Of a DNA stretch of 64,000 nucleotides, positions 1,716-54,674 are shown piece by piece; within the stretch, counting starts at the first letter, position 1; every line of letters begins with the position of its first letter. The translations under genes were made by a program, and so were the position numbers. The stretch covers positions 53,072,001 to 53,136,000 of the forward strand of contig OZ024743.1 in assembly GCA_964016885.1 (NCBI GenBank). The letters are read 5' to 3'. The DNA is from Eledone cirrhosa (taxonomy: Eukaryota). The notes beneath the pieces were generated by a model, which worked only from the letters and a program-made list of their open reading frames with translations, was not told where the DNA came from and searched no databases.

Positions 1716-1820
1716 TAGGAAATTGTTCAAGACCCCGACGGCAGAGCTCAAGCCGTTTCGACTGAAATAGCCGTCGAAACGGCTTGAGCTCTGCAGTCGG
1801 GGGTCTTGAACAATTTCCTA
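1716..1820. repeat. Fold-back palindrome containing the 3' half of a hammerhead ribozyme
   Basis: Arms taggaaattgttcaagacccc...gtttcgac / gtcgaaac...ggggtcttgaacaatttccta around a 10-nt loop. The left arm on the minus strand reads GAAA-CGGC-ttgagctct-GCCG-TC (stem III plus GUC triplet). Confidence 0.75.
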
Positions 1821-2652
1821 TATACATACATACATACAAGGCCCTTCGGACTGCCAGGCATGAGCCAAAACCTGTATGGACAGTCAGCCTGAGACCCCCT
1901 ATGTTGTCAATAACTGATCAATAGATTACTGAGGTCAACTGATCGACTGTAAATATTTATCAATATGTCAGGTGACCTCTTTATTTGCCTTATCTCTTCT
2001 TTCTATTGATTTCCATGTCTTAACTCTTCTTCCGATACCTCCCTCCCCACTTTATATATATATATATATATATATATATATATATATATATAAACGGAAA
2101 AAATGAAACAAAATTTCATTTCCCACTCTTAGTACGGCTGTTACTTAAATATAAGTATGTATACGTACATACATATATGTATACAGACGTACAGTAGTAT
2201 GTATATTTATATACATACATGCACACATATATATATGTACGTATGGATTCACCGAACATTTATTATAATGCTCGGTGTGTTTGTAAACAAACATCCCGAA
2301 TTAAGCTGTACAGTGTCTAGCAACCATCGTTGCTCATTTGTTCAACACTGACAAAGGAACGCTGTACTAGTTTCAAGCTTATTAGCTATCGTCAGCAACG
2401 TATACCTTCCTGCCAGATGATTGAACGTCTGAAAGTATATACTTTCCTTATGCATATTAACGGCTGAGCAGCCTAATTTGCATATCGAGTGAGTTAATCG
2501 GCCGGGCGCACCGAAAACTTATATATATATATTTAAAAGTTCAATGAATATTTATATATATATATATTTAAAGGTTCAATGAATAAATCAAAGAATGAGT
2601 TTTACAATAGATTGGAAGCACTCAACAGTATTGGTTTTCCAGAGTTATTAAT

Positions 2653-2920
2653 ATTAATTCAAAATATTAACAAAATAGATATTCTTGTGATCAAGTATAT
2701 TTTATTATACATATTTCAGAGGTACTGAGTTAACTTCAACAGTACGTCCTCATCAGATATGACTGAATCTTAACCATCTACTATGTCAGGGTATGTCATG
2801 CATCATCTTATTTTATCTGATGAGGACGTACTGTTGAAGTTAACTCAGTACCTCTGAAATATGTATAATAAAATATACTTGATCACAAGAATATCTATTT
2901 TGTTAATATTTTGAATTAAT
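2653..2920. mobile_element. Non-autonomous PLE-like inverted repeat with a hammerhead in each arm
   Basis: 107-bp arms 2653-2759 and 2814-2920, flanked by TA tracts; homologous to the hairpins at 53.6 and 54.3 kb. Confidence 0.8.
2811..2873 (+). ncRNA. Minimal type I hammerhead ribozyme
   Basis: ttttat-CTGATGA-ggacgtactg..cagtacctct-GAAA-tatgtata-ataaaa; stem I ttttat/ataaaa, stem II gtactg/cagtac, short near-palindromic stem III. Confidence 0.75.
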
Positions 2921-3654
2921 TGAATTAATATATATATATATATATATATATATATATATATATAAGAAGCGTTAAACTATCTTCAAACCCTCTTGTGTTA
3001 TATATATATATATATATAACAAAGGGGTCCTGAAAACTTTCCCTATTACCCACTCTACTACCCAAAGTATTGAGTACTCTGGTGCGTTATGGTCCACCTG
3101 GTTCCTTACCACAACTCCTTCTTTATATATATACGTGTGTGTGTGTGTGACTAACTCTTTCCCCTCTATCTTATATAAGTTCCTCCTCTCACTTCTATCT
3201 ATTTTCAATCCATTGCCTACTCCTCCTTCTCCTACACAGTTCTCTCTCTCTCAGAGACAGAAGTAGTATGATTATACAGAGAGGTATAGATTAGTAGGTA
3301 GCGGGCTGTTACACACACACACACGCTGACACAGACACACTGACATACACACTGACATACACTGATACACATACACTGACACACTCAACTATATCTCCTA
3401 CCTCTATACAATTTCCTGTTATTGTTAGACATAAACACACACATATATATATATAACACAAACTATATATATATATATATATATATATATATATACACAC
3501 AAACTATATATATATATATATATATATATATATATATATATACACACAAACTATATATATATATATATATATATACACACAAACTATATAGTTCTGAACA
3601 GTTGTCAGGTGAGTAGTATAGTTTTGATCTGTAAAACTCATGTCATGCACATCT

Positions 3655-4275
3655 AACTCACACACAAACACCAGAACACACACGCTCACACACACACCAG
3701 AACACACACGCTTACACACACAAACACCAGAACACACACGCTCACACACACACCAGAACACACACGCTTACACACACAAACACCAGAACACACACGCTCA
3801 CACACACACCAGAACACACACGCTCACACACACAAACACCAGAACACACGCTCACACACACAAACACCAGAACACACACGCTCACACACACACCAGAACA
3901 CACGCTCACACACACAAACACCAGAACACACACGCTTACACACACAAACACCAGAACACACGCTCACACACACAAACACCAGAACACACACGCTCACACA
4001 CACACCAGAACACACACGCTCACACACACAAACACCAGAACACACGCTCACACACACAAACACCAGAACACACGCTCACACACACAAACACCAGAACACA
4101 CGCTCACACACACAAACACCAGAACACACAGGCTTACACACACAAACACCAGAACACACGCTCACACACACAAACACCAGAACACACACGCTTACACACA
4201 CAAACACCAGAACACACGCTCACACACACAAACACCAGAACACACACACACACATCAGAACACACACACACACAT
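3655..4275. repeat. CA-rich minisatellite (unit ~24-30 bp, core caccagaacacac(ac)gctc)
   Basis: More than 20 tandem copies with variable CA tract length. Confidence 0.93.
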
Positions 4276-4390
4276 ATATACAATTACATGGTTTCGATCC
4301 CTATCCTCATATCATAGCATCTAATGGCCCAAACATTTTATATCCTCTCCTTATAGATTACTTACCTATCTATCTGTCTATCTATCTCAA

Positions 4391-52210: not shown

Positions 52211-52404
52211 ATATATATACATACATACATACATACATACATACATATATACATATATACATACACACCACATACATACACATCACATACATACACACAC
52301 ACATACATACGTGCATACATACATACAAACAACATACACATATACATACAAACATACATAACACACATACATACATACATACATACACATTACATACATA
52401 CATA

Positions 52405-53045
52405 AGAACCTTCCAGTCAAGAGATATCCACACTGTTATCCTTCTCTTCTCCACTTTTGCCCGACCCCACCTTGAATACTGTTGTCCACTGTGGTCTCCC
52501 CACACAAAATAAAGTATCATGCAAGTTGAAGCACCCCAAAGATCAAATACAAAAAAAAAGATAGATGGCAGGACAGGCCTTGACTATTGGAGTCGATTAG
52601 AAAAGCTCAACCTTTATTCTCTCCAGTGTCGTAAATATCCAGGGAGGTAAATATTCCATCAGTTTTGCCCAAATGATGTTGGCATCACCTTTAATGTACA
52701 CCCAAGGCTTGGGCCCCGTGCTATCCGCCCACAACAAAAATCTCACTCGCATCTCATAACAACAATACGGCACAATTATTTCACCTCAATTGGCCCTGCA
52801 CTCTTTAACATTATACCAAGACACATCAAAGCAGAGACAGGCCCCATCCAGTTCAAGATGTCTTTGGAGAAATTCCTTCAAGAAATCCTGGATAAACCTC
52901 CTACACCCGGATATGCCTCCGTAAACAATAACTCCCTTCTTGAGTGGGCCATGGTGCCCAAATCCTGATTTGAAAGACTTCGCCAGGTGGTGCTATTAAG
53001 TTAGACATGGCCTGGGCCAGTACTGGCCGAAACCTATCAAATTTA
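52405..53045 (+). mobile_element. CR1/L2-type LINE 3' fragment
   Basis: RTFQSRD..ILLFSTFARPHLEYCCPLWSPH..VEAPQR..LDYWSRLEKLNLYSLQ..GPALFNIIP..FKMSLEKFL. Confidence 0.85.
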
Positions 53046-53644
53046 CACACCACACATATATTTATAAATACATACACACCACATATACACACACACCACA
53101 AATGCATACATTCTTGTGCATATACAGGTATACATAGATACATACATGCATGCAATCATGTGCACATACATACATGTATATATAATACATACACTCTACA
53201 TTAGTGTTCATGTTGGTAGTTAAAATATATATTGAGAAGTGCCCTAAACAGCCAAAGTGAGCAATAAAATTATATCTGTATATATACAGAATGGGTATAT
53301 ACACAGAATGGGTAACCATGACTACGGTAATGTATATATATATGAATATACACGTTTATATGTAAATTAGTTTGACCATTTCAGAAAACTACTAAGAGTG
53401 ACTGGGTATATAAGCCTAGCAAATACATGTTTGTGGTTGTTTAGCTGATATACTTGCCTTTTGATGAAGAACCAACTAGGTCTGAAAATCAATCAAAGGT
53501 GCTTATCATTTTTTTAAATTTACCTGGAAATTCATATTTTCTGGCATGTTTACATGTCTACATATAAAAAGTGTATATTTATATATACATTGTCAGTCTG
53601 GGTTACCTACTCTCTATATTCAAATATTTATATACATATATATA

Positions 53645-53988
53645 TATTATTCAGAATATTAATAAATGAAGTCATTCACATAATCAAAATATATGTTTTA
53701 TTATATATATTTCGAAGGTACTGTGTTGTTTTTTCAGTATGTCCTCGTCAGATAAAATACATGAATTGATGCATGACATACCTCAACGGTCTTGATAGTT
53801 CAATTCCAGTATTGCCAATGCTGGAATTGAACTATCAAGACCGTCGTTGAGGTATGTCATGCATCAATTCATGTATTTTATCTGACGAGGACGTACTGAA
53901 AAAACAACACAGTACCTTCGAAATATATATAATAAAACATATATTTTGATTATGTGAATGACTTCATTTATTATTATTCTGAATAATA
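53645..53988. mobile_element. PLE-like fold-back palindrome with a hammerhead in each arm
   Basis: ~170-bp arms centred near 53815 (ccagtattg-c-caatgctgg); a single-copy tail continues to ~54070 and is homologous to 2580-2650 on the minus strand. Confidence 0.85.
53876..53937 (+). ncRNA. Minimal type I hammerhead ribozyme (mirror copy ~53696-53757, minus strand)
   Basis: ttttat-CTGACGA-ggacgtactg..cagtaccttc-GAAA-tatatata-ataaaa. Confidence 0.8.
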
Positions 53989-54313
53989 ATAATAACTGCA
54001 GAAAATAATATTAATAACTGGTGAAAACTGCTGTTGAGTGCTTTTAATCTATTGTAAAACTATATTCATTTAGAAATCAATGAACCATATTAATCTTTGG
54101 TTACATATATATATATATATAGATATATATATACACATATATATATTTATATATATATATATACATATATATATACATATATATATATATATATATATAT
54201 ATATATATATATATATATATATATATGCAGAGGTTATATTTAATTTATTGGGATTCAACAAGCTTAAACATTTTTATAACTGATATAAAGCACTCAACAG
54301 TTTAGTGGAGTAA

Positions 54314-54674
54314 ATATACAATATATTAATAAATGGAAACTATATTTATAAAACCATAATTATTTTATTATATATATTTGAAGGGCGACCAAGGTCAATT
54401 ATGGTGTGCTTTCATCAGATAAAATACAGATTTGTTTTATAAATAAATATTGACATACCCGGAAAAAAGACAACCTCAACGGTTGAAATTTGCTGCAAAT
54501 TTCAACCGTTGAGGTTGTATTTTTTCCGGGTATGTCAATATTTATTTATAAAACAAATCTGTATTTTATCTGATGAAAGCACACCATAATTTACCTTGGT
54601 CGCCCTTCAAATATATATAATAAAATAATTATGGTTTTATAAATATAGTTTCCATTTATTAATATATTGTATAT
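54314..54674. mobile_element. PLE-like fold-back palindrome with mutated hammerheads
   Basis: ~180-bp arms centred on 54494 (gaaatttgc-t-gcaaatttc); ttttat-CTGATGA..cttc-AAA-tatatata-ataaaa lacks the G of GAAA in both arms. Confidence 0.82.

What the first reader, a model, noticed from the sequence alone, without database searches (positions are those of the whole stretch)
1716..54674. A family of head-to-head fold-back palindromes carrying outward-facing hammerhead ribozymes
Seen: five separate palindromes (1716-1820, 2653-2920, 7866-9925, 53645-53988, 54314-54674) share one design. The truncated 5' ends meet at a small central loop, each arm has a hammerhead or part of one pointing outward, and TA tracts lie on the flanks. 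Three are sequence homologues (ttttatCTGAYGA..GAAAtat.tataataaaa) with different centres, so they folded back independently. Known: PLEs carry minimal hammerheads and often have inverted terminal segments. Inference: the nascent cDNA 3' end snaps back and primes its own second strand, routinely inserting hairpin DNA into (TA)n. Any read-through transcript would form long dsRNA with a ribozyme at its 3' base.
Basis: partly seen in the sequence, partly recalled or inferred. Interest (0 to 1): 0.75.

Follow-up and report, generated by a model that had tools for sequence, protein, structure and literature searches.

The report
Twin-primed Penelope insertions with scrambled scar
The five mirror-image repeats are truncated, back-to-back insertions of Penelope-type jumping genes, a known layout; their lopsided anatomy indicates that each was likely built from two separately started DNA copies of the element's RNA rather than by one copy folding back, and one lineage carries a few letters that differ in nearly every insertion.

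Summary
All five palindromes are real. They are head-to-head, 5'-truncated insertions of Penelope-like elements (PLEs) in (TA)n: four of Hydra type (three homologous subfamilies plus one other family), one of Neptune type. In 49 arm pairs of the P2 family, 46 pair one tailed with one untailed arm; in 31 of these the tailed arm is the shorter inside, or is tail only, which a single snap-back cannot give. Arms stop at a TATA/initiator site (23 of 88 arms within 6 nt; none of 115 at the ribozyme cut), so the template is likely sense, unspliced RNA. Best reading: two cDNAs, primed from both cut target ends at two fixed internal sites, usually on one RNA, then end-joined. The layout and the self-priming idea are published; the scan reached the twin-priming reading on other DNA, also in this genome. 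Not found in my searches: a 3-5-nt patch about 20 nt past the inner start that is rescrambled per insertion (28 strings in 37 arms). Ribozyme activity and splicing are untested.

The parts
1638..1715 (-). P1 one-sided tail (Hydra-type family 1)
   Evidence: same tail on one arm of family copies
1716..1762 (-). P1 left (tailed) arm; 3' half of a U3-A8 hammerhead
1763..1820 (+). P1 right (untailed) arm, about 10 nt longer inside than the left arm
2532..2550 (-). short duplicate of the P2 tail end (likely abortive start)
   Evidence: sequence
2567..2652 (-). P2 one-sided tail
2629..2631 (-). per-insertion scrambled patch in the P2 tail
2653..2759 (-). P2 left (tailed) arm, stops 3 nt upstream of hammerhead C3
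2760..2920 (+). P2 right (untailed) arm, starts 6-7 nt short of the predicted start site; includes the 54-nt 'spacer'
2791..2796 (+). predicted 5' splice site GTATGT, kept in the P2, P4 and P5 subfamilies
   Evidence: splicing untested
2809..2875 (+). type I hammerhead, C3 at 2817, predicted cut after 2867
2921..2929 (+). 9-nt stutter of the untailed end
7822..7865 (-). P3 one-sided tail (Neptune-type family)
7866..8907 (-). P3 left (tailed) arm, 21-25 nt longer inside; minimal hammerhead core at 8114
8905..9925 (+). P3 right (untailed) arm; minimal hammerhead core at 9677
8910..9401 (+). C-terminal GIY-YIG endonuclease fragment (CX4CxxC linker, CCHH), present in both arms
   Evidence: motifs read; RT upstream in family copies; no Pfam hit
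53645..53814 (-). P4 left (untailed) arm with complete hammerhead (C3 at 53751)
53816..53988 (+). P4 right (tailed) arm with complete hammerhead (C3 at 53882); both arms end 3-5 nt short of the predicted start site
53989..54103 (+). P4 one-sided tail
54226..54313 (-). P5 one-sided tail
54314..54494 (-). P5 left (tailed) arm, hammerhead C3 at 54418, G12>C
54495..54674 (+). P5 right (untailed) arm, hammerhead C3 at 54570, G12>C at 54608; both arms end 6-9 nt short of the predicted start site

Best explanation
The palindromes are 5'-truncated head-to-head insertions of endonuclease-bearing Penelope-like retroelements in (TA)n, each likely made from two separately primed cDNAs rather than one folded-back strand. 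Inferred steps: the RT/GIY-YIG protein cuts both strands of a TA tract; each 3' end primes on the sense, unspliced RNA at one of two fixed internal sites (P2 family +105 and about +215, counted from hammerhead C3), usually on the same RNA. When this happens in the 5' repeat of a transcript, both cDNAs run off the RNA start after 170-280 nt and are end-joined, giving a mini-palindrome with one tail. The tail-primed enzyme likely meets the complex at the inner start, where it stops (tail-only arms) or passes and leaves a few scrambled letters. The hammerhead rides along in a predicted 5'-UTR intron and does not set the fold point. Shown: anatomy, family identity, end statistics, patch. Inferred: priming, RNA start, intron, collision.
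For: Family: RT and GIY-YIG ORF upstream in long copies; outer ends fall at two points, +105 and the tail end (57 and 55 of 170 hits); read depth drops about 145-fold past the tail end and 5.5-fold past -65 (run X1). Polarity: of 49 pairs from loci of the first 100 exact hits, 46 are tailed+untailed: 18 untailed longer, 13 tail only, 10 tailed longer, 5 symmetric. Start site: 23 of 88 arms reaching -61 stop within 6 nt against 27 of 115 over the 157 nt before; 0 at the ribozyme cut; the peak is the A of a TCACT or CCACT motif in three subfamilies (-64, -68, -83), 30-31 nt after TATAAA in two. Untailed arms reach it 15 times, tailed arms 6. One template: arms share recurrent minor alleles above a random pool in four families (22 vs 3.5, 8 vs 3.4, 116 vs 33, 124 vs 35); P5's G12>C occurs 2 times genome-wide, in its two arms, against 352 for G. 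Two cDNAs: 1 of 169 junctions joins arms of two different families (L170). Patch: 28 strings in 37 arms on both of two linked haplotypes; 11 arms with an identical 104-nt core have 11 different patches; control 7-mers give 2-12 strings against 39 in 54 arms. In vitro a PLE cuts and extends both strands and starts at two internal sites that define the tail (PMC11167929).
Against: 15 of 46 pairs, and P3, P4, P5 themselves, fit snap-back as well; P5's private shared change fits snap-back or arm-to-arm conversion as well as one RNA. 32 further arms had no partner in the stretch fetched. Discordant alleles between arms are many (42, 23, 21, 68) and 184 private changes are in one arm against 20 in both. 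The patch is absent from the tails of the P1 and P3 families, so it is one lineage's feature; one both-tailed P4 locus has the same patch in both arms. An extra cap-derived G was not enriched clearly (8 of 26). Start site and intron rest on motifs and end pile-ups only. P1, P4 and one P5 set were best-hit or pattern-biased samples.
Confidence: 0.68

Rival explanations
1. Snap-back self-priming (first reader; PMC3846280): one tailed cDNA folds back, the copy is cut or joined at +105, and later deletions at the palindrome centre produce the asymmetric forms.
For: Symmetric or tailed-longer pairs are 15 of 46; P4 and P5 have 1-nt centres; P5's private G12>C is in both arms; both-tailed palindromes exist and one shares its patch; several P1-family junctions have a 6-nt overlap. 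Central deletion in long palindromes is recalled knowledge, not from a call.
Against: 31 of 46 pairs need the extra deletion step, in four cases over 1.1-2.6 kb ending within +99 to +130; untailed arms carry the very first bases of the RNA more often than tailed ones (15 vs 6); P2 has identical arms yet is strongly asymmetric; a two-family junction exists.
Confidence: 0.17
2. Two cDNAs, but routinely from two separate RNA molecules of the same source locus (one per subunit of a dimer); the patch then marks an RNA break, structure or modification that the RT crosses inaccurately, not a collision.
For: Two-family junction L170; many discordant alleles; predicted dimer in PMC11167929; patch lies in the loop closed by a conserved ACUC/GAGU stem in P4 and P5 folds.
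Against: Genome-unique change shared by both P5 arms; only 1 of 169 junctions mixes families; all 13 tail-only ends lie at +99 to +146, around the inner start and the patch.
Confidence: 0.12
3. A self-propagating palindromic unit (MITE-like or retrozyme-like) or a sequencing fold-back artefact.
For: Very many short copies (472 exact hits of one 32-mer).
Against: Centres differ from locus to locus; sizes run from about 200 nt to over 5 kb with ORF inside; one-sided tails; opposite-strand joints in raw reads of other samples.
Confidence: 0.03

Closest known systems
Hydra clade of C-terminal EN+ PLEs, including Hydra-1_Obim (PMC8557442; section 11 and supplement row read)
   Same: CxCX5C linker, CxxC and CxH around E and N, no CCHH, DKT, RW(R) motif, hammerhead, (TA)n target, inverted 5'-truncated copy, one-sided tail, start site in the pLTR with a 5'-UTR intron (described there for Penelope and Chlamys-3)
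   Different: Tail of about 110 nt (P1 family about 78) against the 30-40 bp described; most copies are 170-280-nt stubs; per-insertion scrambled patch. Not compared by sequence with Hydra-1_Obim.
Adineta vaga Penelope insertions with head-to-head palindromes (PMC3846280, passages)
   Same: Head-to-head inverted repeats, palindromic junctions, tail on one repeat, TATA and TCACT initiator in the pLTR
   Different: That paper infers self-priming, probably on an antisense template; here the end statistics point to a sense template and two primers.
Anolis Poseidon PAc in vitro (PMC11167929, main text)
   Same: Both strands cut and extended, two internal start sites bounding the tail, AT-rich target, ribozyme cut not needed
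   Different: Starts there lie 111-118 nt into the ORF and are not homologous to the target; here they lie upstream of the ORF in a predicted intron at ATAT-type motifs that could pair with (TA)n. Inverted joining was not addressed there.
Minimal PLE hammerheads (PMC4209133, passages)
   Same: Type I, palindromic short stem III, opposite-strand pairs 100-700 bp apart, U3-A8 core variant, 2-bp stem I variant
   Different: P2/P4/P5 have a 6-8-bp stem I and a long stem II with an invariant C.C mismatch; activity untested.
L1 twin priming (recalled, not read)
   Same: Two primers on one RNA, inverted pieces joined by end joining
   Different: Both starts are at fixed internal sites, and the pieces often overlap, giving palindromes.

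Membership tests
EN+ Penelope-like element | RT plus GIY-YIG ORF linked to the repeat | tested here: met
   P2 family RT and EN frames; P3 family EN in window and RT upstream, Pfam RVT_1 E=8.8e-5, below cut-off; P1 family EN upstream in L228, L232. Pfam gave no GIY-YIG hit; motifs read by eye. P4 and P5 assigned by homology of their ends only.
EN+ Penelope-like element | Tandem or inverted pseudo-LTRs with a tail on one side | tested here: met
   tandems L061, L072; 46 of 49 pairs with one tail
EN+ Penelope-like element | Hammerhead in the pLTR | tested here: met
   163 distinct strings with stems I and II kept through compensatory changes; 0 hits in 20 shuffles
EN+ Penelope-like element | Start site in the pLTR and retained 5'-UTR intron | tested here: inconclusive
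   motifs and end pile-ups; no RNA run
EN+ Penelope-like element | Target-site duplication | not testable with these tools
   both flanks are TA tracts
Hydra clade (P2/P4/P5 lineage, P1 family) | CxCX5C linker, CxxC/CxH, no CCHH | tested here: met
   P2 family; P1 family; definition
Hydra clade (P2 family) | DKT and RWK motifs | tested here: met
   SDKT and RWR in L061 frames; not seen for P1, P4, P5
Hydra clade | Placement in an RT phylogeny | not tested
   no tree built
Neptune type (P3) | CX2-5CxxC linker, CCHH, EN C-terminal to RT | tested here: met
   Nematis not excluded without a tree
Naiad | N-terminal EN, no canonical hammerhead | tested here: not met
   EN lies C-terminal, next to the 3' end
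MITE / fold-back DNA transposon | Fixed unit with equal termini and one centre | tested here: not met
   unequal ends, variable centres
Active hammerhead ribozyme | Self-cleavage | not testable with these tools
   needs an assay; P5 core broken, P1 half

The most novel reading that the evidence does not exclude
Every tailed insertion of this lineage carries a molecular scar of two reverse transcriptases working in tandem on one unspliced RNA: the tail-primed enzyme hits the rear of its partner about 20 nt behind the inner start and either stops or jumps on with a few untemplated letters, so thousands of genomic copies record the footprint and order of a twin-priming PLE complex.
Probability: 0.3. 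Interest if true: 0.7.

Novelty: new member of a known kind. Interest (0 to 1): 0.42.

Why it matters
How PLEs make their inverted repeats and one-sided tails is stated as open in PMC8557442 and PMC11167929. These short insertions give counts that separate the models: a sense template, two primers, run-off at the RNA start, no role for the ribozyme cut. They name exact positions (start -64, splice donor -26, RT starts +105 and +215, scar +125 to +127) for a direct in vitro test. The palindromes themselves are ordinary PLE debris and no host function is shown.

Tried and rejected
Rfam found no hammerhead, only chance miRNA hits. Pfam gave no GIY-YIG hit. Sequencing runs: no RNA holder listed, so expression, splicing, editing and small RNAs are untested. 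No listed record bridged P2's own junction. Ends at the ribozyme cut: 0 of 115. A pile-up at the predicted splice donor: 4 ends at -26/-27, but clusters of like size lie at -32/-33 and -58/-59; inconclusive. A genomic spliced copy for one guessed acceptor: none; other acceptors not tried. A-to-G excess from RNA editing in templates: none clear (A>G 33 vs T>C 29 in P2; 17 vs 25; 19 vs 26; 10 vs 12). Cap-derived G: not clear. An apparent double pass over the patch in L056 proved to be an 18-nt slippage duplicate. A patch in P1 and P3 tails: absent. The haplotype test returned nothing through a pattern error and was rerun. Paper searches for twin priming of Penelope, for a hypervariable or untemplated tail patch and for recent mechanism papers listed nothing on point; subscription papers are not covered. 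Searches of earlier findings for the patch and for collision gave 0. Rows dropped before counts: L038, L079, L080, L081, L106 (same junction as another locus) and duplicate views of one site; four of the first 100 hits were not fetched with flanks.
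Full report
Observation. The five inverted repeats exist at the stated places. I call them P1 (1716-1820), P2 (2653-2920), P3 (7866-9925), P4 (53645-53988) and P5 (54314-54674). The window is G000:C4:53072001-53136000 of a 3.0-Gb genome; earlier scan notes call it octopus, which I did not test. Only P4 and P5 have a 1-nt centre. P2's 54-nt spacer is the right arm running further into the element; P3's left arm is 21-25 nt longer and overlaps the right by 3 nt. 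Each palindrome has an element-derived tail outside the symmetry on one side only.

Identity. One 32-mer of P2 has 472 exact genomic hits. [quoted passage not shown] Tandem copies L061 and L072 show the tail running on into the ORF start. P4 and P5 are subfamilies with homologous ends. The P1 family also has a Hydra-type EN upstream, and a long copy folds into a three-stem hammerhead with a U3-A8 core (L242); P1 holds its 3' half. P3 holds the end of a Neptune-type EN in both arms, with RT upstream in other copies. Pfam did not recognise the endonucleases, so these calls rest on motifs.

Ribozymes. 163 distinct strings from the P2/P4/P5 lineage and kin keep stems I and II through compensatory changes, with an invariant C.C mismatch at pair 4 (strings are related, so this is not a count of events). 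In the window the strict descriptor hits three arms and one unrelated site; 20 shuffles gave none. P5's core G12 is C in both arms. Opposite-strand hammerhead pairs 100-700 bp apart were reported in PMC4209133.

Mechanism test 1, polarity. From the first 100 exact hits, 78 loci were classified after dropping duplicates: 49 head-to-head pairs and 32 arms without a partner in view. 46 pairs have one tailed and one untailed arm; the other three are one both-tailed and two both-untailed calls, one of which pairs distant pieces. Of the 46, 18 have the untailed arm longer inside, 13 have a tailed arm that is tail only (ends +99 to +146), 10 have the tailed arm longer, 5 are symmetric. In the first two classes (31) neither arm can be copied from the other. 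P1 and P2 are of this type; P3, P4 and P5 fit either model. A short-reference count gave the same classes in the other families, though those samples are biased.

Test 2, where arms stop. 23 of 88 arms that reach -61 stop within 6 nt, against 27 of 115 over the preceding 157 nt; none stops at the ribozyme cut. The peak is the A of TCACT at -64, 31 nt after TATAAA; in P4's family -68, 30 nt after TATAAA; in P5's family -83, at CCACT without TATA; a GTATGT follows 38, 38 and 43 nt later. Summed depth in run X1 falls from 179,037 to 32,317 across -65, and from 115,128 to 797 across the tail end; raw reads of X14 show the same step. I infer a sense-strand, unspliced template and run-off at its 5' end; Penelope has its start in the pLTR and an intron 46 bp further (PMC2377424; PMC8557442). 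This explains near-symmetric centres without a fold. Untailed arms reach the start in 15 pairs, tailed arms in 6, the reverse of what snap-back predicts.

Test 3, one template or two. Arms share recurrent minor alleles far above a random pool in four families, though discordances are many. P5's G12>C occurs only in its two arms (2 hits against 352): one RNA, snap-back or conversion. One of 169 junctions joins a P1-family tailed arm to a P5-family untailed arm (L170), which needs two templates or two exactly adjoining events.

The patch. At about +125 to +127, some 20 nt past the untailed end, 39 strings occur in 54 tailed arms against 2-12 for control 7-mers. Two markers 90 nt apart define two haplotypes (35 of 37 arms); both have the same commonest patch and nearly every copy differs, with A/T-rich letters and changing length; 11 arms with an identical 104-nt core have 11 patches. 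So it is rewritten at insertion rather than inherited. It recurs in the P4 and P5 subfamilies but not in the P1 or P3 tails. With tail-only arms ending around it, the simplest reading is a stall and jump of the tail-primed RT behind its partner; an RNA break, structure or modification is the alternative. This step is inference.

Comparison. The layout is published (PMC8557442 passages and sections 10-11; PMC3846280 passages, which also propose self-priming). Two internal starts and extension of both strands were shown in vitro (PMC11167929, parts 1-2 of 4 read). The retrozyme preprint 10.64898/2026.07.22.740005 (part 1 of 5 read; its supplements are closed) concerns tandem units and does not bear on the junctions as far as read. 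The scan reached twin priming and start-site run-off on other DNA, once in this genome, which I saw after forming that reading (note); the Hydra assignment came from a note and was then tested. I found no mention of the patch.

Verdict. Interest 0.42, for the testable mechanism and the patch.

Noticed in passing
window 11250-11851: 310-bp tandem repeat, 1.9 identical copies, each with a hammerhead-like core on the minus strand; retrozyme-like.
   Followed up: no
window 13321-22584 and 23428-43325: Two large satellites: 29-bp unit x320 and 51-bp unit x389.
   Followed up: no
window 48926-50089 and 60332-61487: Two oppositely oriented copies, 76-78% alike, of what looks like a LINE RT region.
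   Followed up: no
window 1220-1247 and 3019-3122: Further P1-family pieces in TA tracts, the second mostly tail.
   Followed up: no
window 1388, 2395 (minus), 6723 (minus), 46460 (minus): Further CUGANGA...GAAA cores of other families, probably more PLE ends.
   Followed up: no
L170:1453-1766: Head-to-head insertion whose two arms come from different PLE families (P1 and P5).
   Followed up: partly
L241, L242 about 1440-1570: P1-family hammerhead with a U3-A8 core; a TATA-like motif and the inner-end pile-up both lie inside its stem II, so short copies carry only half a ribozyme.
   Followed up: partly
L034, L064, window 2921-2929 and 2532-2550: Short duplications of the outer ends, like stuttered starts.
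   Followed up: partly
L065, L067, L069: Three long arms end at the same point (-2581 on the reference copy); may be a second hot spot or a feature of the reference.
   Followed up: no
window 48493-48546: Weak tRNA-like Rfam hit (29.5 bits).
   Followed up: no
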